Shown: piece by piece, positions 3,880 to 61,984 of the stretch | Position numbering within the stretch: the stretch's first letter is position 1 | Layout: each line of letters begins with the position of its first letter | The notes under the pieces: generated by a model | What the model saw: only the letters and a program-made list of their open reading frames with translations | What the model was told of the DNA's origin: nothing | Databases searched by the model: none | Program-made: the position numbers and the translations under genes | Source: Eledone cirrhosa | Lineage: Eukaryota | DNA: 64,000 nucleotides | Assembly: GCA_964016885.1 (NCBI GenBank) | Contig: OZ024742.1 | Span: 249,922,001 to 249,986,000 of the forward strand | Reading direction: 5' to 3'

Positions 3880-4318
3880 TAAGATACCTGGCGATGCGCA
3901 GACACAGGGAACTTATACAAAAATATTCAGTGGATGGAGAAAAACAAGCGGGGACTAAATTCCAAGACACTGAAAAAATCACTGCCTTCTTGTTCGGTGG
4001 CAAATTCAAAAGAATCAATCACTTGACATCCAGGTTAATAAGTGAGGAATGGGGTGTTAAAAAGACAGTAGAATTTTTCAGTGTCTTAGAATTTAGTCCC
4101 CGCTTGCTTTTTTCCATCCACTGAATATTTTTGTATAAGTTCCCTGTGTCCGCGCATCGCCAGGTATCTTAGCTGAGAATGACTCCCTGATGACGAAAAG
4201 GTTTCTCCATAATCTCCATTTGGAAACTATGTATATTCCCTTTCAGAAACTAATTAGTTGGAGTGAAATTTAAGTAAGTAAGCTAAATACTATAATTTTC
4301 TTATTTTACGTTTTTCAT
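3880..4318 (+). mobile_element. Fold-back element (arms 3880-3985/4065-4171) followed by an HHR-like motif; second copy at 28408-28762 (-)
   Basis: Near-perfect inverted arms, then ccctgatgacgaaaagg...ggaaactatgta; homologous reverse copy ending in (TA)n. Confidence 0.7.
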
Positions 4319-11733: not shown

Positions 11734-12395
11734 TCTTATGCCAGGGAGCGTGTTCACGAACCAAAGTATCGTCTTCCTGTTTTCCTTCGGTTGCAACGTT
11801 TTTCGAAATATTTACATCTGCATTCACAGATTGATTTTTTTTTAGTTTCAGAAAATCCCGTTAAGGGTGAAAGCAGCGATTCTTTGCTTAAACTTTAATA
11901 TGTTATTTTAATATAGATATTCGTGTACAGATATTTTTGCATACACAAAAACAAAATATGAACAAACAAGGCTCCCGATTACATAATCACATGCATCACT
12001 GACAGATATTTTTGCATACACAAAAACAAAATATAAACAAACAAGGCCAACGATTACATCAGTTAGTCTTAGTGTACTTCATACTGCTTTTAGGTAGAAG
12101 ATTCCGTTAAGGGTGAAAGCAGCGATTCATTTTCTGCGTTCACAGATTGATTTTTTTTGTTTCAGAAAATCCCGTTAACTGTGAAAGCATTGATTCTTTG
12201 CTTAAACTTTAATCTGTTATTTTAATATATGTAAATATATATATAATTATAAATTCGTGTACAGATATTTTTGCATACACAATAACAAAATATAAACAAA
12301 CGTATTTATTTCACGAGGCTCGATAAGGATAAATATATATCAAATATATAAGAACCCTAGAGCAAATCCCGAGCAACGCCGGGCCATTCTGCTAG
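11368..12395 (+). mobile_element. Non-autonomous Helitron-like element
   Basis: 5' ctatatatataaaacagaggatgtctgtctg; 3' hairpin cccgagcaacgccggg then ccattctgCTAG|T; further copies at 28014-29493 (+) and 56295-56830 (-). Confidence 0.7.
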
Positions 12396-12666
12396 TATAT
12401 ATATATAATCAAGATTTAGCAAATAAGAAAAAGTTTCAAAATAAATTTTTAAAAATTCACTGTACCTGCTATGGTTACCTTTACCGTACCTTTACCCTAT
12501 ATGTATTTTGCGTGTAGGGATATATACTTTATTATATATATATATATATATATATATACATACATATATATACGGGTCACTTTTACGACCTTTCAGACCT
12601 GTGTTAGCTGGGGACGAGGTCATATATTTTATCGTTCCTGAGGTTTTTAACCCTAGGAAAGGAAAA

Positions 12667-12749
12667 TGCTTCTCTGATGATCTTTGTTTTTCCATTAATA
12701 TCCATGTGATATCTAATGTTTTGCAAAGTGAAACTGTACAGTAAGGGCC
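12667..12749 (+). ncRNA. Type I hammerhead ribozyme
   Basis: ttct-CTGATGA-tctttg...caaagt-GAAAC-tgtaca-GTA-aggg; palindromic stem III actgtacagt. Confidence 0.7.
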
Positions 12750-13184
12750 ATTTGAATAGGTAAATATTTATATTATATTTTTTAATTTTGATTAATTTTA
12801 ATTTTAAATTAATTTTGATTTATTTTGAAAAATTGGTTGAATTTTACTTGTTCTGCTTATCTTGATATTAAGTTCTGGTATATCAAATTATTACCATAGA
12901 ACCACCTTGAATCATAGACAACCTATGTATTTCTGGGGGTACCTTGTACCCTTAGGCATATTTACTTTATTCATTATGCTCCGTTATGTAGAGAACAAAT
13001 CTGTCGTTCTATTTAGCTGCTATTTTTTTAGCGGCGACTATAGACAACAAGTCTGTGATTTCCCGCCTTCACTTCACACCGGCATATATACGGGTCACTT
13101 TTACGACCTTTCAGACCTGTGATAGCTGGGGACGAGGTCATATATTTTATCGTTCCTGAGGTTTTTAACCCTAGGAAAGGAAAA

Positions 13185-13267
13185 TGCTTCTCTGATGATC
13201 TTTGTTTTTCCATTAATATCCATGTGATATCTAATGTTTTGCAAAGTGAAACTGTACAGTAAGGGCC
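13185..13267 (+). ncRNA. Type I hammerhead ribozyme (tandem copy)
   Basis: Identical to 12667-12749, 518 bp downstream. Confidence 0.7.
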
Positions 13268-13489
13268 ATTTGAATAGGTAAATATTTATATTATATTTTT
13301 TAATTTTGATTAATTTTAATTTTAAATTAATTTTGATTTATTTTGAAAAATTGGTTGAATTTTACTTGTTCTGCTTATCTCGATACATATGTGTGTGTGT
13401 GTGTAACGTGTCATAACGTGTCATAACTTGTTCTAACGTGTCATACCTTGTTCTAACATGAACCCTTAAATGCATATTGCAGCCGTCAG

Positions 13490-13853
13490 TAGGAAATCAA
13501 GACCCGATCGAGCAACAAGACATCAAATTCATGGCGAAGCTAGGGTGAAACATCAGCCAAATCATTGACGCTCTGGGGTAAGTTTATGGGTTCAATGACC
13601 CAAAGATATCAACAACCTATAAATGGATAAGTCGTTTTAGAAGTGGAAGAGATGAGGTTGAAGATGATCCCCAGTTGAAAAGGCAAAAATGCGGCTTTGA
13701 CATCGCATTGGCTTTTAAGTCGCATGGTCTTCAGTGTTAAATGTTTGCAGGAGTGTATTAACCTAGATGGAGCATATTTTGAAAAATAAACATCATAACG
13801 TAAATCGTTTTTCCAACTATCCTTTTCTCACGAACATTTTGAAGGCCCTCGTA
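13490..13853 (+). mobile_element. Internally deleted mariner transposon remnant (irritans/Hsmar2-like)
   Basis: Translates IKFMAKLG*NISQIIDALG*VYGFNDPKISTTYKWISRFRSGRDEVEDDP (N-terminal HTH), later LQECINLDGAYFEK*, then TIR-like ttttgaaggccctcg+TA. Confidence 0.75.
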
Positions 13854-18298: not shown

Positions 18299-20317
18299 GT
18301 TTCTTTTATTTGCCACTAGGGCATCAAAAGTGGGACAAGTACAAAGGGGGGAGTTTACACAAAAAGGCGTCCTCAATAAGGAGGAGGCAATAACAAAATA
18401 TAAAAATAAAATAAGATATATCAAAAAATAAAATTTATAACAAAATCCTCAATAGAGAGGAGGGGCCTTGGGGGGTCGCACACACCCCCGAAAAAAGTGT
18501 GCAACCCTTTTCCTCAGGAGCACACGAAATGATATCGGAAGAAACGGACCAGTTGTTGGCCAGAGAGAAAGGTGCCTGACCTCAGTCCTTTCAGACGCGT
18601 CCACCATACAACCTCTTTCGCCATGGCTATTACGCACAGAAACACCGCCTCTGCTTCATCTTTGAAGGGGGGAGGCGGCTTGATCATTACAATAGACTCG
18701 GTGGTCAACCGGATCGGTCCCACCCTTGACAGCAGTTGTTCGACATAGCCCCACAGATCGGCTACGCCCGAGCAGTGTACCAATGCGTGTGCAACGGTTT
18801 CCTCGTCGCACACGCATCTGGGACAGATCTTTTTGGCGGGGTCCCTACCCGGGCGCCCGTGTCTGTAGAGCCTTTCTCGAACGGGTAAAGCCCCTCGGTA
18901 GCACTGCCAGGCCAGGGACTTCTGGAAGTTGACCATAGGTCCCGGGCTGAATGTCCTACCGAACAGGCTGGCCAGTTCGTCCTCCTCCATGTCTAGGGCT
19001 TCTCCGAGGGCGTCGTCGCACCTGCTGCGTACCAGCCCTCTATAGAATGTTGCGGTGGAGTCTCCACTGATAACCGGATCCGCCTGCCAGAGGGCGGTGA
19101 GCGCCTGGGCACACTCAGTGTGCCAGGCGCCCAGTTTTCTCGGTCTTTGCTTGACCCAGGATTGCAGCTCGGTGAGTGAGACGAGTCTGGGAAAGGTTCG
19201 TCTCACAAACGAGGCCCACACCGGTTGTCCGGTGAGGAATACGTAGAGGTGCCGTAGCCTTAATGCGTGTTTACGCATCATTAGCCACGGCATCCCCAGC
19301 CCTCCTTTCGAAGGGTGTTGACAGCAGATGGATCTCCTCACCATAGGAGCCCGCCTCTTCCAAAGGAATTGGAAGAGCGCGCGCTCCATCTTGGTGAGGG
19401 TTTCCCTTGGGCAGGGCACTACGGTCAGGCGGTAGTAGATGACGGACGCTATGTAGGTGTTCGCCACCTCCGCCCGACCTTTCGGGGATAGTTTGCAACT
19501 GGCCCACTTCTGGGTCAGTGCAAACACCCTGTTCGTAACCTCCGCCCAGTTTTTCTCCACCTGGAGGTCCGGTCCGAACCAGACCCCGAGCAACTTCACC
19601 GGGCCCTCCGTCCAGCGTCCGACGACGCCATCGGAGGGCATCGGTCTGCCTCTCCACGTGCCGAGTTGCAAACCGATCGACTTGTCCCGGTTCAGCTTAG
19701 CCCCTGTGAACTTTTCGTACTCCTCCAGTAAGGTGGCGACCGCCTCGATTTCGGAGGCCGTCGACACCATTACTGTCACGTCATCGGCGTAGGCTGACAC
19801 CGCTTTCCGCAATCCCGGTTCCAAAGGGATACCCTGCAACAACTCCAACTTCCGCAGTAGTGGCTCGAGAGTCAACACATACAGAAGGGAGGAGAGAGGG
19901 CACCCTTGTCGGATGGACCGCGCGATTTTGAACGGCTCCGAGAGGTAGCCGTTCACCTTGACCCTAGAGCAGATGCGGCTGCTGTGCATAGCAGTGATCC
20001 AGCCCCTGAAAACGGGTCCGAAGCCTGCCGCCGCTAGCACCGCATCCAGGTAACCATGGTCGACCCTATCGAACGCCTTAGATTGATCCAAGTTGATCAG
20101 AGCCCCACCAAAGCCGGGTTCGTTCCCAACCCTCTCTATGATGTATCGCATGAGGTGGAGGTTGTCATGGATGGACCTGGACGGGATAGCGCATGTCTGC
20201 GCATCTCCCACCAGGTTGCCCACGACAAGCGCCAACCTCTTTGCTAGCACCTTGGCCAAAATCTGTAACTCTGTATTTAGCAGAGTTATGGGCCTGAAGT
20301 TTCTTATTTCGTCCCCA
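18299..20317 (-). mobile_element. 5'-truncated Tx1/L1-clade non-LTR retrotransposon inserted in (TCTA)n
   Basis: RT motifs plus 3' UTR ending ggcaaataaaagaaa; (GATA)n on both flanks. Confidence 0.9.
18514..20316 (-). CDS. Tx1/L1-type ORF2 fragment: reverse transcriptase and C-terminal zinc-binding domain
   Basis: NFRPITLLNTELQILAKVLAKRL, LDQSKAFDRVDH, SIRQGCPLS, AYADD, GGLG, CPRC..EETVAHALVHC; the ORF-track N-terminus (YLSI repeats) is microsatellite. Confidence 0.92.
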   Translation of the reverse strand, partial: GDEIRNFRPITLLNTELQILAKVLAKRLALVVGNLVGDAQTCAIPSRSIHDNLHLMRYIIERVGNEPGFGGALINLDQSKAFDRVDHGYLDAVLAAAGFGPVFRGWITAMHSSRICSRVKVNGYLSEPFKIARSIRQGCPLSSLLYVLTLEPLLRKLELLQGIPLEPGLRKAVSAYADDVTVMVSTASEIEAVATLLEEYEKFTGAKLNRDKSIGLQLGTWRGRPMPSDGVVGRWTEGPVKLLGVWFGPDLQVEKNWAEVTNRVFALTQKWASCKLSPKGRAEVANTYIASVIYYRLTVVPCPRETLTKMERALFQFLWKRRAPMVRRSICCQHPSKGGLGMPWLMMRKHALRLRHLYVFLTGQPVWASFVRRTFPRLVSLTELQSWVKQRPRKLGAWHTECAQALTALWQADPVISGDSTATFYRGLVRSRCDDALGEALDMEEDELASLFGRTFSPGPMVNFQKSLAWQCYRGALPVRERLYRHGRPGRDPAKKICPRCVCDEETVAHALVHCSGVADLWGYVEQLLSRVGPIRLTTESIVMIKPPPPFKDEAEAVFLCVIAMAKEVVWWTRLKGLRSGTFLSGQQLVRFFRYHFVCS

Positions 20318-20320
20318 TAT

Positions 20321-20415
<95 letters not shown>

Positions 20416-20448
20416 GATATATATATAGAGAGAGAGATAGATAGATAG

Positions 20449-20538
<90 letters not shown>

Positions 20539-21405
20539 CGTAGATAGATAGATAGATAAAAATGCATACACGTACTTATGTGTGTGCGCGCTTGTATATG
20601 CCTGTATATGTATGTCTGTATGTTTGTATATGCATTCGAGTAGTTGTGCTAGATTCACTGACATGCCGCATCACAGTAATTTTAAAATGAATCAGCTCTA
20701 CTCTCGTATTTATACACGAAATAGTTTTGCAACTAGAAAGAAAACTAAACACCATTTTCACGTGATTGGTGTCTGTTCATGTATGTAGAAAAAACACAAC
20801 TTCAATCAGTGTGTATATAACTAAAGAGCTGGTAGGTGGGAGTAGGGTGTAGACGGCTAGAAGTTTGTGGAAGTGGGGAATGGTCGTAGAACTCAACCAC
20901 CAGCACTGCGGCGGTGGTGTATATCACAGTGGGATGGCTGACATATTTAACACAAGATGGACGGCCAATATATAGAACAGGGCGGTAGTGTTGACTGCAG
21001 GGCGATGGCAGTGGCGGTGTTTGTCAGAATATCAAAAGAATTGAAATACATTTTAAGGAGAGAGGAGAAAAAGAGGATGGTACGTACGAAGGAAATAAAT
21101 AAATAAATAAAGAAAGAAAGAAAGAAATAAAGAAAGAAAGAAAGAAAGAAGGAAAGAAAGAAAGAAAGAAAGAAAGAGCGAAAGAAAGAAGAAGAAGAAG
21201 AAGAAGAAGAAGAAGAAGAAGAAGAAGAAGAAGAAGAAGAAGAAGAAGAAGAAGAAGAAGAAGAAGAAGAAGAAGAAGAAGAAGAAATAGTTAAGGTTGG
21301 GCCAGAAGGAAGAGGAAGTAGAAAGTGGGAAAAAAAGGAGTATAAGAAGGGAAAACAAAATATTTTCACAACATGTAGGGGTGAGAAAGCTAAATTGAAA
21401 AACAC

Positions 21406-28413: not shown

Positions 28414-28787
28414 CGTAAAATAAGAAAATTATAAAATTAACTTACTTACTAAAATTTCACTCCAACTAATTACTTTCTGAAAGGGAATAAACATAGTTTC
28501 CGAAGAAACGTTCGGAGAAGTCTTTCGTCATCAGGGAAGTCTATTCTCAGCTAAGTTTCCAGGCAATACGTGGACACAGGGAACTTATACAAAAATAATT
28601 CAGTGGATGGAAAAAGCAAAGCGTGGACTAAATTCCAAGCCATTGAAAAAATCACTGCCTACTGCGTCGGTGGGTCGGTGGCAAATTTCAAAGAATCAGT
28701 CACGTGACATCGAGGCAATCAGTGAAGAGTGGTTTGTTAAGAAGACAGCAGCCGGACCGTTACTATATATATATATATACATATATA

Positions 28788-32136: not shown

Positions 32137-32839
32137 TAGCAAAAGGAATAGGTAAATATAAAGCAAAGGGAATAGGTGAATATTTAAATTAGATTTTTAA
32201 TTTATTTTAAAAAATTGTTTGAATCTTGCTTGCTTCGCTTATCTCAATTTTATAGTTCTGGTATGTCAAAATAATGCCATAGAACAACCACTGTATCATA
32301 GACACCCTATATATTTCCAGAGGTACTTAGTACCTGTGGGGATATTGATCTCTTTTTATATAATCTCCGTTATGTAGAGAACAAATCCGTTGTTTTATTT
32401 AGCTACTATTTTTAGTGGCGTGATAGACAACACATCTATGTTTACTTCCGCTTCTACTAAGGGCTGGTTCATGCAAAGGTTAAGTTTACGGCCTCATTCG
32501 ATCCTGTACTAGCCGGAAGATGGCAATGTATTTTGCTGTTCCTGGGACTTTACGTCCTAGGTAGGGAAAATGCTTTCTGAAGATCTGAACATTTCCATTG
32601 GAAGTCCCTAGGATCTCCAATCTTTTGTGAAGTGAAACCGTCGGTAAAAGCAAAAGGAATAGGTGAATATTGAAATTATATTTTTTAATTTATTTTAAAA
32701 AGTTGTTTGAATCTTGCTTGCTCCTCTTATCTCAATTTTATAGTTCTGGTATGTCAAATTAATACCATAGAACAACCACTGTATCATAGACACCCTATAT
32801 ATTTCCAGATGTATTTAGTACCTGTGGGGATATTGATCT

Positions 32840-32841
<2 letters not shown>
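32137..32841 (+). mobile_element. Partial-tandem HHR element (homologue of 12565-13382)
   Basis: 32160-32352 repeated at 32647-32841, with the HHR directly before the second repeat. Confidence 0.8.
32571..32652 (+). ncRNA. Type I hammerhead ribozyme
   Basis: tgcttt-CTGAAGA-(long stem II)-GAAAC-cgtcg-GTA-aaagca; perfect 6-bp stem I. Confidence 0.75.
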
Positions 32842-32905
<64 letters not shown>

Positions 32906-39206: not shown

Positions 39207-39261
39207 ACTGCCTGAAGAGGTCACAGCCAAAGATGGCTGTCACCGAAATATATATAGCAGT
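39207..39261 (+). ncRNA. Type I hammerhead ribozyme
   Basis: actgc-CTGAAGA-ggtcacagcca aaga tggctgtcacc-GAAA-tatata-TA-gcagt. Confidence 0.85.
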
Positions 39262-42833: not shown

Positions 42834-44302
42834 ATGTGTGTGTGTGTGTGTGCGTGTGTGTGTATTTATATTTATGTAAGTCGGATTCCCAATGGGTATT
42901 GGGAGGTGACAATTAAAATAGATAATCAATGCGTTGGTCGAATATAGGTATTTTTATATATAAATGACTTCCACAGGACTAGAACTGTTTCAGTCGTATA
43001 ATGAAACAGTTCGAGAACTGTAGATTTCATATCTATTTAATATATATATATATTAATATATATATTAAGCGGGCTGATATTACAACCATATAAAGGCTAT
43101 GATTTTAGAATGCTCAAGATAGGAAATAAACAGTTCAGGTACTTTAAAACATGTAACATATTTATTTGTATTTCATTAACTCTGAGGAGTTATTCTTACA
43201 GGAATAAATATTCATCCTTGTTAGTCTGCCGAAACATTCGTAAATCCATTACATACTTTAATAATAATCCACATTTTATTTTTCGTTATATATACATGTA
43301 TAGGTGGTGAATTGGGAAAGTCGTTAGAACGTCGGATAGAATGCTTTGCGGTATTCGTTTCGACTATCTGCTCTCTGAGTTCAAATTCCGCCGATGTCAA
43401 CGCTACCTTTCATCCTTTTGAGGTCGATAAAAAAGTACCAGTCTAGTACTGTGGTCGATTCTTCCTCTATATCTCTTTCTTATATCCTCTCTCTCACTTT
43501 CTATCTTTCTTTGGAGAGGTATGGGCTCCACCAGACTTAAAATGCCCAAGAAACGCCGTATATTAATACTGCGCCCGTACCACTCTCTCGGGAGTTACGG
43601 GAACATACCATATATATGCGCGTGTGTGTGTGTGGGGGGTGGGGGGGGGGGGTGTTTGTGTTTATTTGTGTGTGTAGTGACCTGTGTGCTTTAGATTCCA
43701 GTGTACTTAAAAATATTCAATCATCAACTGAATAAGCACTCAATACATATGAGTAGAGTTTAAGATATATCGGAGACAAAAGTGGAACTGACTTCGACAT
43801 TTCAGAAATTGCTTGATCTTGCTGCACGAATGTCTACATCTTGGCATTTTATAAGGTTCACGTGGATGCATATATTTATATATGTAATAAGGTTTTTTCA
43901 GAAGGAAGGGGGTTCAAATGTTACTAGATCCATCATTTCTTCATAATGCCCTCACCCGATCCTCTCCTTACCATCTAAACTGGGTGTGTCTCTCTACACC
44001 ACTTTCTCCCTTTTCTTTCTCATTATTTATTTTATTTTTATTTTCTTCACATTTATACGTCTTTGTTTCATCCTTTATTCTTCTATTCCTTCTCTCTCTC
44101 CATATTTCTCTGTTATGTCAAGCTATCAATCTCGTTTTACTTCTTTCGGTCCTTCCTTCTTCGCTTCTGTCCTCCTACCTTTCTTTCCATATCGTCTTTC
44201 ATTAATATCTTCTCTCTCCTCGTCTCTTTCTTCTTTTTTTCCTAAATCCCTTTTATCCCTGTCTACCCCCCCCCCCCTCTCTCTCTCTCTAGGTATCTCT
44301 TT

Positions 44303-46662: not shown

Positions 46663-46698
46663 TCTTCTGATGAAGGACTAGCGTACGAAACGTTAAGA
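46663..46698 (+). ncRNA. Minimal type I hammerhead ribozyme
   Basis: tctt-CTGATGA-aggactagcgtac-GAAAC-GTT-aaga; palindromic aacgtt; decayed relative at 14101-14138. Confidence 0.7.
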
Positions 46699-50370: not shown

Positions 50371-50437
50371 TTTTATCTGATGAAAACACAAATATTATTG
50401 CATGATGATGTTTGTTTTTGAAATGCGCATAATAAAA
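50371..50437 (+). ncRNA. Type I hammerhead ribozyme
   Basis: ttttat-CTGATGA-aaacacaaatattatt..gatgatgtttgttttt-GAAA-tgcgca-TA-ataaaa; palindromic atgcgcat; follows a duplication (49896-50045/50136-50270). Confidence 0.75.
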
Positions 50438-61552: not shown

Positions 61553-61984
61553 AATTGGCGATAGCACTGTGAAAATGTTTAAGTATAATAGAGGTGTGTG
61601 AAAACGTATACGTTATTATACGATAAACATATGAGCAGCTTAGCTTTCAAAGAAAACATTTTATTTTCCTCGATCTTCCCCGGGGAGTATATCACAGAGT
61701 TGCCAGTACGTTTTGAGAATGTAAGACAGAGTTGTTTCAAGATTTCTTAATCTTTCATCAGTGGCACTCACTCAACCCATGCTAGCTCGGAAATAGACTA
61801 GAGTCTATACAGAACTTTTCCTGATAATCATTTGATGGATATGTTAATTTGCATATAATGCGAACCTGGCTATTTAAATTTAATTGGTGATAGCACTACG
61901 GCAGCGTTTATGCATAATATTGCTGTATATGAAAACATATAAACACAAATACGTTTTAATACAATAAACATATGGTTATGCTCA

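What the first reader, a model, noticed from the sequence alone, without database searches (positions are those of the whole stretch)
12565..13382. Young 518-bp-period partial tandem with two identical HHRs
Two essentially identical ~300-bp repeats each contain an HHR, with cleavage sites at 12743 and 13261, so read-through transcription would release a 518-nt monomer. The homologue at 32 kb is clearly diverged but keeps the core and has a different, still self-complementary stem III (actgtacagt versus accgtcggt), which suggests selection on the ribozyme.
Basis: partly seen in the sequence, partly recalled or inferred. Interest (0 to 1): 0.75.

Follow-up and report, generated by a model that had tools for sequence, protein, structure and literature searches.

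The report
Hammerhead retrozyme with Penelope-type insertion ends
This is one copy of a very abundant non-coding jumping repeat that carries a hammerhead (self-cutting RNA) motif and whose copy ends look like those left by Penelope-like retrotransposons, which likely move it; it is a known kind of element, and its cutting and RNA circles are only predicted.

Summary
Window 12566-13385 is 1.58 head-to-tail units of a 518-bp repeat. The two 302-bp overlaps are 99.3% identical, and each has a hammerhead core with the predicted cut after 12743 and 13261.

It is not a local duplication. It is the usual insertion product of a dispersed non-coding family (1930 first-look candidates in the 3.0-Gb genome). 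The diverged 32-kb copy belongs to a sister family (2678 candidates).

- Copies have variable 5' ends.
- They have two fixed 3' ends: 125 or 224-234 nt after the predicted cut in family A, and 63-96 or 203 nt in family B.
- They usually abut (TA)n.
- In two-armed inverted insertions, one short end pairs with one long end in 19 of 23 cases, and never with its own type.

These are Penelope-like-element (PLE) hallmarks, and the genome holds more than 10,000 GIY-YIG candidates.

The three hammerhead helices covary across sublineages. Helix III is palindromic, and two copies are predicted to form a double hammerhead.

Against: no Rfam hammerhead model scores it, positions 10.1/11.1 are U.U, no RNA data exist, and no autonomous partner was found in 64 PLE loci.

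Verdict: a new member of a known kind (animal non-LTR retrozyme). Cleavage and circles are untested.

The parts
12531..12571 (.). (TA)n-rich microsatellite abutting the 5' end of the insertion. The exact 5' end (unit position about 1-7) merges into it.
   Evidence: Sequence. The 5' flanks of other single-armed copies are also (TA)n.
12566..13385 (+). One insertion of retrozyme family A: 1.58 units of a 518-nt non-coding repeat, 32.6% G+C.
   Evidence: Open frames on both strands gave no Pfam match above cut-off.
12566..12868 (+). Upstream copy of the repeated part (unit 1-303).
12869..13083 (+). Single-copy part of the unit (unit 304-518). It includes the alternative 3'-end ('tail') region.
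13084..13385 (+). Downstream copy of the repeated part. It ends at the family's short 3' terminus (unit 302/303, 124-125 nt after the cut).
12664..12753 (+). Hammerhead motif 1.
- Helix I: 12664-12673 with 12744-12753.
- Core CUGAUGA: 12674-12680.
- Helix II: 12682-12728 (two-part, 47 nt) between U12681 and U12729.
- GAAA: 12730-12733.
- Palindromic helix III: 12733-12742.
- A17 = 12743; predicted cut between 12743 and 12744.
13182..13271 (+). Hammerhead motif 2, identical to motif 1. Predicted cut between 13261 and 13262.
12744..13261 (+). The 518-nt monomer that two cuts would release. Folded as a circle it gives -125.9 kcal/mol, z = -4.66 against shuffles.
   Evidence: prediction only.
12819..12951 (+). 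Best-conserved stretch between families A, B and C (76-208 nt after the cut). It spans the short 3'-end site at 12867/12868 and a hairpin just 3' of it. Likely the part the reverse transcriptase recognises (inferred).
12967..12977 (+). Position of the family's alternative, long 3' terminus (unit 402-412, 224-234 nt after the cut). It is not used by this copy.
32140..32850 (+). Copy of sister family B, about 1.4 units.
- Its body starts at 32160, the first base after that family's predicted cut. A 20-nt partial duplicate precedes it at 32140-32159.
- One hammerhead motif lies at 32571-32652, with A17 = 32646.
- The 3' end lies in (TA)n at about 32836-32850 (long-end type).

Best explanation
The 820-bp stretch is a single insertion, 1.58 unit lengths long, of a dispersed non-coding 518-nt repeat family that carries a conserved hammerhead-ribozyme motif and was likely pasted into a (TA)n microsatellite by the enzymes of Penelope-like retrotransposons (PLEs). 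In other words, it is an animal 'non-LTR retrozyme'.

Shown here:
- The family is dispersed and abundant.
- Its copies have variable 5' ends and two fixed 3' ends, about 100 nt apart, downstream of the ribozyme motif.
- Most 3' ends abut (TA)n.
- Many insertions are two-armed (head-to-head), with one short-type and one long-type end.
- The hammerhead core is invariant while its helices covary between sublineages.
- PLE genes abound in the genome.

Inferred:
- A PLE endonuclease nicks both strands of a (TA)n tract.
- Its reverse transcriptase starts copying at one of two internal sites of the retrozyme RNA. A conserved box just after the ribozyme would guide it, as shown in vitro for the anole PLE.
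- It runs towards the 5' end over more than one unit length.

Predicted only:
- In multimeric transcripts, two motifs pair through the palindromic helix III into a double hammerhead.
- They cut after A12743 and A13261, and the 518-nt monomer is ligated into a structured circle. That circle could serve as an endless template.
For: Family and anatomy:
- Own-genome search found 1930 first-look candidates, of which 40 were scored, giving 114 matches. The sister family gave 2678 candidates.
- Of 44 family-A arms, 25 end 124-125 nt after the cut, 16 end at 224-234 nt, and 3 end elsewhere. 40 of 44 have (TA)>=4 in the 3' flank.
- Of 38 family-B arms, 26 end at 63-96 nt, 10 at 203 nt, and 2 elsewhere. 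30 of 38 have the TA flank.
- The 5' ends are scattered over the unit.
- Two-armed insertions: 12 of 14 in family A and 7 of 9 in family B pair one short with one long end. None of the 23 pair two ends of the same type.
- Single arms are 29 short and 6 long. If the two arms chose independently, about 28% of pairs would be mixed (my arithmetic).

Match to published PLE traits:
- 5' truncation, partial tandems, an inverted 5'-truncated copy, a tail at one end only, and (TA)n targets (PMC8557442, passages).
- Two internal reverse-transcription start sites downstream of the hammerhead, and extension of both strands (PMC11167929, main text).

PLEs in this genome:
- GIY-YIG search gave 10,596 candidates; all 150 scored were over the Pfam cut-off.
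- ORFs reach 1096 aa with RVT_1, and one carries RVT_1 plus GIY-YIG.
- One PLE copy also ends in (TA)n.

Ribozyme fold:
- On 68 sequences, 83.3% of cells are paired against 33-41% with slid partners. 12 of 33 pairs changed on both sides. The covariation score is 0.237 against 0.03-0.08 for slid partners and 0.141 for shuffles.
- RNAalifold on one sequence per sublineage (7 sequences) finds helix II and 4 pairs of helix I unaided, with 7 compensated pairs.
- Helix III occurs as the perfect palindromes ACUGUACAGU, ACUGAUCAGU and ACCGAUCGGU.
- The two-copy cofold gives -40.6 kcal/mol against 2 x -13.6, and forms a double hammerhead.

Other:
- Both repeats of one insertion share rare variants. L030 has 7 variants seen in no other of 44 sampled repeats, present in both its repeats, with 0 differences between them.
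- 5' ends fall at +1 to +4 of the predicted cut in 5 of 38 B arms and 1 of 44 A arms, against about 0.3 expected per family (flanks inspected).
Against: - No Rfam hammerhead model reports the motif at any threshold tried.
- RNAalifold on all 68 sequences finds only 3 pairs.
- Positions 10.1/11.1 are U.U (G.U in one sublineage), not the G-C that is highly conserved in canonical and PLE hammerheads (PMC4209133).
- The monomer's lowest-energy fold is not the hammerhead: -13.6 against -11.2 kcal/mol when constrained.
- The ribozyme region is not the best-conserved part of the unit.
- In vitro, the anole PLE inserted RNA whether or not its hammerhead could cut.
- No autonomous PLE sharing sequence with the unit was found in 64 PLE loci. 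tblastn of PLE ORFs on the units gave nothing better than E = 0.088.
- The 'tail' here is about 100 nt, not the published 30-40 bp.
- The sampled loci are the best-scoring matches to a full-unit query, so short copies are under-sampled.
- The alignment used for covariation was picked with a core-motif filter.
Confidence: 0.8

Rival explanations
1. This reading accepts the same element and the same PLE-type insertion. The hammerhead-shaped fold is kept as a protein-binding or folding module and does not cut to any useful extent. Copies are made from linear read-through transcripts of longer tandem arrays, and no circular RNA is involved.
For: - U.U at positions 10.1/11.1, and no Rfam hit.
- PLE hammerheads cut poorly in vitro (PMC4209133).
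- The anole PLE needs no cleavage to insert RNA in vitro, and no reads ending at the cut site were found there (PMC11167929).
- The most conserved box is the start-site region, not the ribozyme.
- Arrays of about 3 units exist and could give long transcripts.
Against: - All 11 core bases are invariant across sublineages while about half of the neighbouring columns differ.
- Helix III stays palindromic through several different sequences. That is what a dimeric ribozyme needs, and it is not obviously needed for protein binding.
- There is an excess of 5' ends at +1 to +4 of the predicted cut in family B.
Confidence: 0.3
2. The stretch is merely the 5'-truncated end (pLTR plus tail) of an autonomous PLE, not a separate non-autonomous element.
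For: PLE insertions are mostly 5'-truncated and form partial tandems (PMC8557442). The hammerhead sits where a pLTR hammerhead would.
Against: - The same 518-nt unit closes on itself, with no ORF between repeats, in copies of up to 2.4 units.
- The longest open frame in a tripled unit is 94 codons, and no Pfam match passes cut-off.
- None of 64 PLE loci shares sequence with it, apart from separate neighbouring retrozyme insertions in L045 and L123.
Confidence: 0.06
3. A local tandem duplication or nascent satellite arose at this locus by slippage or unequal crossing-over, and the hammerhead-like motif occurs by chance.
For: The two repeats are nearly identical and adjacent. The 2026 preprint discusses local amplification of such repeats.
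Against: - The same partial-tandem layout with the same 3' end recurs in the other sampled family-A copies on several contigs.
- The core pattern is 200-fold over chance in the window.
- The helices covary.
Confidence: 0.03

Closest known systems
Animal non-LTR retrozymes (Cervera and de la Pena 2020, PMC7229834, passages read; Li, Clavereau and Pollet 2026 preprint, 10.64898/2026.07.22.740005, abstract, results part 1 and discussion read)
   Same: - Non-coding, low-G+C, head-to-tail units with one type I hammerhead each.
- High copy number.
- Co-occurrence with PLEs.
- Proposed to be non-autonomous PLE dependants.
   Different: - The unit is 518 nt. That is above the 170-400 nt of the 2020 paper, but inside the 51-972 bp of the preprint.
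- The hammerhead is of the atypical PLE-like kind: long helix II, palindromic helix III, and U.U at 10.1/11.1.
- Copies are dispersed 1.x- to 2.x-mers with fixed 3' ends, not long arrays.
- RNA circles are not shown here.
- No sequence match to a PLE pLTR was found, whereas the preprint found such matches in Xenopus.
Minimal hammerheads in pLTRs of EN+ Penelope-like elements (Cervera and de la Pena 2014, PMC4209133, passages read)
   Same: - Type I topology.
- Long helix II and short helix I.
- Helix III reduced to a small palindrome, so two motifs must pair.
- Many covarying families within one genome.
   Different: - The published motifs keep G10.1-C11.1 with one extra base after A9. Here a U sits on both sides of helix II.
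- Helix II is much longer here (47 nt, two-part).
- The host element has no ORF.
PLE integration signature: partial tandem, inverted 5'-truncated copy, one-sided tail, two internal RT start sites (Craig et al. 2021, PMC8557442; Frangieh et al. 2024, PMC11167929)
   Same: - Variable 5' truncation.
- Partial tandems and head-to-head arms.
- The extension is at one end only.
- Start sites lie downstream of the hammerhead.
- Targets are AT-rich or (TA)n.
   Different: - The distance between the two ends is about 100 nt, not 30-40 bp.
- The pairing of one short with one long end was counted here on a non-autonomous element.
- I found no such count in the passages I read. That is not a claim that it is unpublished.
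Double hammerheads of newt satellite 2 and avocado sunblotch viroid (Forster et al. 1988; seen only as cited in PMC4209133)
   Same: Helix III is too short to close. Activity is expected only when two motifs pair in a multimer.
   Different: Those were shown to cut. Here the dimer is a thermodynamic prediction.

Membership tests
Hammerhead ribozyme, type I | Conserved core: C3 U4 G5 A6 N7 G8 A9, G12 A13 A14, A15.1-U16.1, and H17 not G | tested here: met
   CUGAUGA ... GAAA ... U-A at 12674-12743 and 13192-13261. The core is the same in families B, C and D, with N7 = A or U.
Hammerhead ribozyme, type I | Helices I and II flank the core and are supported by compensating changes | tested here: met
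   - Helix I has 3 pairs and helix II 7 pairs with changes on both sides. 83.3% of cells are paired against 33-41% when slid.
- RNAalifold on 7 sublineage representatives finds helix II and 4 pairs of helix I.
- RNAalifold on all 68 copies did not find them.
Hammerhead ribozyme, type I | Helix III closes the core | tested here: inconclusive
   As a hairpin only 3 pairs with a 4-nt loop can form. As a duplex of two copies, 10 pairs form (ACUGUACAGU). The cofold gives -40.6 kcal/mol against 2 x -13.6. This is a prediction only.
Hammerhead ribozyme, type I | G10.1-C11.1 pair next to the core | tested here: not met
   U.U in families A, B and C; G.U in sublineage D.
Hammerhead ribozyme, type I | Scores with an Rfam hammerhead covariance model | tested here: not met
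   No hammerhead family was listed at gathering or at E<=10. None was listed in 12 PLE loci of the same genome either.
Hammerhead ribozyme, type I | Site-specific self-cleavage | not testable with these tools
   The only indirect hint is an excess of copy 5' ends at +1 to +4 of the predicted cut in family B (5 of 38 arms).
Animal non-LTR retrozyme | Non-coding head-to-tail units, one type I hammerhead per unit, low G+C, no LTR/PBS/PPT | tested here: met
   32.6% G+C. The longest open frame is 94 codons, with no Pfam match over cut-off. Units are head-to-tail.
Animal non-LTR retrozyme | Expressed as linear and circular monomer RNA | not testable with these tools
   No RNA run was listed. The four runs laid are contigs of unrecorded kind.
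Animal non-LTR retrozyme | Coexists with autonomous PLEs | tested here: met
   10,596 GIY-YIG candidates; all 150 scored were over cut-off. ORFs carry RVT_1, and one (L044) carries RVT_1 plus GIY-YIG.
Non-autonomous derivative of a Penelope-like element | PLE insertion anatomy: 5' truncation, partial tandem, inverted arm, extension at one end only | tested here: met
   In 19 of 23 two-armed insertions one short end pairs with one long end, and in none do two ends of the same type pair. The window's own copy is single-armed.
Non-autonomous derivative of a Penelope-like element | Sequence homology to the pLTR or 3' end of an autonomous PLE in the same genome | tested here: inconclusive
   No match in 64 PLE loci (269,384 bases) of at least 5 ORF families. 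This is a small sample of more than 10,000 candidates.

The most novel reading that the evidence does not exclude
Both strands of one break in a (TA)n tract are extended on the same small retrozyme RNA, probably a 518-nt circle. Copying starts from two fixed sites about 100 nt apart, one per strand. This would explain three observations: two-armed insertions always pair a short with a long end, arms exceed one unit length, and the repeats within an insertion are near-identical. If so, the scars of these retrozymes are a genome-wide record of how the poorly understood Penelope-like enzymes integrate.
Probability: 0.3. Interest if true: 0.6.

Novelty: new member of a known kind. Interest (0 to 1): 0.35.

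Why it matters
Retrozymes and their suspected dependence on Penelope-like elements are already in print, so the locus itself is ordinary.

The value lies in the family's insertion scars. There are two fixed 3' ends placed just downstream of the ribozyme. Two-armed insertions follow a strict one-short-plus-one-long rule. Most copies have (TA)n flanks. Together these tie a non-coding ribozyme repeat to the PLE integration mechanism, which so far has been worked out only in vitro for one lizard element. They also give clear, testable predictions for cleavage, circularisation and priming.

The motif also shows that Rfam models miss this class of hammerhead entirely.

Tried and rejected
- RNA evidence: no RNA holder was listed. 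The four runs laid are short contigs of unrecorded kind. They show only high summed depth over the element and no molecule ends.
- Rfam: gathering and E<=10 scans gave no hammerhead.
- Autonomous partner: blastn of A, B and C monomers against 24 and then 64 PLE loci matched only separate retrozyme insertions lying near PLE ORFs in L045 and L123. tblastn of 13 PLE ORFs on the units gave nothing better than E = 0.088. A motif scan of the PLE loci found no hammerhead of this lineage inside a PLE.
- Genome-wide census of 5' ends at the cut site by pattern: it returned only 4 and 5 distinct loci, too few to count.
- RNA-editing-like bias among variants shared by both repeats of an insertion: none, the substitution types are mixed.
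- RNAalifold on the full 68-sequence alignment recovered only helix III.
- Within-family variability is only slightly lower in the core (6 of 495 cells, 1.2%) than elsewhere (2.2-4.0%). That is expected for mostly dead copies, so it does not test selection.
- Earlier notes of this scan were consulted. By sequence there was nothing. By words and by place there were several similar readings. I treated them as leads only.
- Supplements of the bioRxiv preprint are closed. Its lists of retrozyme families, which include three insects and one coral, could not be checked against this family.

Full report
**1. The observation**

The window is part of a 3.0-Gb assembly (contig C3). The repeat finder reports two 300-nt copies, 12566-12865 and 13084-13383, 99% identical and 518 nt apart. 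blastn extends the second copy to 13385 at 99.3% over 302 nt. The differences lie at 12604 and 12863, plus 12868 at the very end.

Each copy holds the following motif, read 5' to 3':
- CUGAUGA (12674-12680 and 13192-13198).
- A 47-nt two-part hairpin flanked by a U on each side.
- GAAA.
- The palindrome ACUGUACAGU.
- A at 12743 and 13261.
- A strand (12744-12753) that pairs with the ten bases before the core, with one C.C mismatch and two G.U pairs.

A core pattern finds 4 sites in the window against 0.02 expected.

The homologue at 32 kb is real, at 68-79% identity. It has CUGAAGA ... GAAA ACCGUCGGU A.

**2. Not a local duplication but a dispersed family**

A search of the window's own genome with the 518-nt unit gave 1930 first-look candidates. 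Of these, 40 were scored, yielding 114 matches of 74-100% identity on many contigs. The 32-kb copy belongs to a sister family (B) with 2678 candidates and a period of about 487 nt. A third family (C, period 459) and a fourth sublineage (D) turned up in fetched loci.

I chained the matches into 'arms'.
- Family A, 44 arms: 25 end 124-125 nt after the predicted cut, 16 end at 224-234 nt, and 3 end elsewhere.
- Family B, 38 arms: 26 end at 63-96 nt (17 of them at 95), 10 end at 203 nt, and 2 end elsewhere.
- The 5' ends are scattered over the unit.
- Arm lengths run from 26 to 1224 nt, which is up to 2.4 units.
- 40 of 44 A arms and 30 of 38 B arms have (TA)>=4 within 20 nt of the 3' end.

The window's copy is a single arm. 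It begins in a (TA)n tract and ends at the short site, followed here by CATATG(TG)n rather than (TA)n. These loci are the best-scoring matches to full-unit queries, so short copies are under-represented.

**3. Two-armed insertions**

In 23 loci, two arms lie head-to-head with their 3' ends outward.
- In 12 of 14 such pairs in family A and 7 of 9 in family B, one arm ends at the short site and the other at the long site.
- Four pairs have an odd end.
- No pair has two ends of the same type.
- Single arms are 29 short and 6 long. Independent choice would therefore give about 28% mixed pairs, so 19 of 19 typed pairs is far from chance (my arithmetic).

[quoted passage not shown] It also matches the in-vitro behaviour of the anole PLE. 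That enzyme nicks and extends both strands of an AT-rich target, and it starts reverse transcription at two adjacent internal sites downstream of the hammerhead (PMC11167929, main text). The gap between the two ends here is about 100 nt, not 30-40 bp.

**4. PLEs in the genome**

The Pfam GIY-YIG model gave 10,596 first-look candidates, and all 150 scored passed the cut-off. Fetched loci hold ORFs of up to 1096 aa with RVT_1. One (L044) has both RVT_1 and GIY-YIG, carries 1.1-kb pLTR-like direct repeats, and has a 3' end in (TA)n.

No autonomous partner was identified.
- The A, B and C monomers matched none of 64 PLE loci, apart from separate retrozyme insertions lying near PLE ORFs in L045 and L123.
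- tblastn of PLE ORFs on the units gave only E >= 0.088.

**5. Is the hammerhead real?**

For:
- The 11 defining core bases are identical in A, B, C and D, while about half of the surrounding columns differ.
- On a 68-sequence alignment with the hand-drawn structure, 83.3% of cells pair, against 33-41% with slid partners. 12 of 33 pairs changed on both sides. The covariation score is 0.237, against 0.03-0.08 for slid partners and 0.141 for shuffles.
- Examples of compensated pairs are C-G / U-A / G-C in helix I, U-A / C-G and G-C / A-U / U-A in helix II, and U-A / C-G in helix III.
- RNAalifold on one sequence per sublineage (7 sequences) finds helix II and four pairs of helix I on its own, at -15.06 kcal/mol with 7 compensated pairs.
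- Helix III appears as several different perfect palindromes. A dimeric hammerhead needs exactly this (PMC4209133).
- Two copies of the 100-nt segment cofold into a double hammerhead, with a 10-bp helix III and helix I formed in trans. The energy is -40.6 kcal/mol against 2 x -13.6.

Against:
- No Rfam hammerhead model reports it.
- RNAalifold on all 68 copies finds only three pairs.
- Positions 10.1/11.1 are U.U.
- The monomer's lowest-energy fold is not the hammerhead.
- The alignment was collected with a core-motif filter, and its members form only a handful of independent lineages.

**6. Hints on the life cycle**

- Folded as a circle, the 518-nt monomer gives -125.9 kcal/mol, against -96.7 +/- 6.3 for 100 dinucleotide shuffles (z = -4.66). 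65% of its bases are paired.
- The best-conserved part of the unit between families is 76-208 nt after the cut (up to 0.83 identity in a 30-column window). The ribozyme region scores 0.47-0.63. I read this box, which spans the short start site and a hairpin just 3' of it, as the likely enzyme-recognition part. This is inference by analogy with the anole PLE.
- The repeats within one insertion are close: 0-13 differences in 12 tandem pairs, and 2 in the window's copy. They also share rare variants. L030 has 7 variants absent from the other sampled repeats and no difference between its two repeats. This fits copying of one template unit twice, but it does not exclude a homogeneous tandem template.
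- Five of 38 B arms, including the window's 32-kb copy, and 1 of 44 A arms start at +1 to +4 of the predicted cut. About 0.3 per family would be expected (flanks inspected by eye). This hints at run-off on cleaved RNA. The numbers are small and the sample is biased.
- Pattern-based censuses returned too few loci to help.
- No RNA data were available. The contig runs show only that the element is highly repeated.

**7. Comparison and verdict**

The element works like, and by most testable criteria belongs to, the animal non-LTR retrozymes (PMC7229834). A 2026 preprint argues that these are non-autonomous PLE derivatives (10.64898/2026.07.22.740005). Its hammerhead is of the atypical PLE-like kind.

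It fails two hammerhead criteria: the Rfam score and G10.1-C11.1. Two decisive features, cleavage and circular RNA, could not be tested.

Its reading is right about the ribozyme-type motif and the Penelope link, and wrong in treating the tandem as a local duplication. The locus is a new member of a known kind. The insertion-scar statistics are the most useful by-product.

Noticed in passing
window 4187-4259 (+), 28496-28534 (-); also L088:403-994, L090:1112-1182: A second, unrelated hammerhead-bearing repeat family. Helix III is ACUAAUUAGU and the cut site is U. In L088 two motifs lie 522 nt apart, which looks like another retrozyme family.
   Followed up: partly
window 39212-39256 (+) and 39654-39610 (-): Two near-identical compact hammerhead motifs in inverted orientation about 400 nt apart. 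Helix II has 10 bp and helix III is AUAUAUAU. This looks like a two-armed PLE-type insertion of yet another family.
   Followed up: no
window 50377-50431 (+); 43182-43243 (+); 38022 (+) and 26091 (-); 61734-61761 (-); 46667-46691 (+): Further CUGANGA...GAAA motifs with plausible helices. For example, 50377 has helix III AUGCGCAU, and 61734 has a 6-bp helix II. None was checked beyond the motif scan.
   Followed up: no
window 12300-12393: In runs X1-X3 the summed word depth is 3-5 x 10^5 here, against roughly 10-40 in the least-covered bins nearby (13475-13615). This stretch just upstream of the insertion belongs to an extremely abundant short repeat.
   Followed up: no
window 18514-20670 (-): A 718-codon open frame with RVT_1 (E = 7.6e-26) and a below-cut-off zf-RVT match (26.2 bits against a 27.5 cut-off): a LINE-type reverse transcriptase, not a PLE.
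   Followed up: no
window 13404-13460 and 13582-13740: A 10-bp tandem repeat (TAACGTGTCA-like, 4 or more copies) lies directly 3' of the insertion. Beyond it is a short frame with a weak, below-cut-off match to the Mos1-type HTH_48 domain (E = 0.089), possibly a decayed mariner.
   Followed up: partly
L060, L072, L084 (family B): Three of 38 B arms start about 17 nt before the predicted cut, at AAGGUGAAAC, the 3' foot of helix II. This may be a second preferred stop of reverse transcription.
   Followed up: no
L076:about 1480-1501: A family-B copy with an internal deletion that removes most of the hammerhead while keeping the last bases of helix III and the cut site.
   Followed up: no
L045:6193-7121 and L123:96-798: Retrozyme insertions of family C type lie 1.5-2.2 kb from PLE ORFs. 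In L045 microsatellites lie between the two; in L123 the insertion is on the opposite strand to the ORF. They look like neighbours rather than parts of the PLE.
   Followed up: partly
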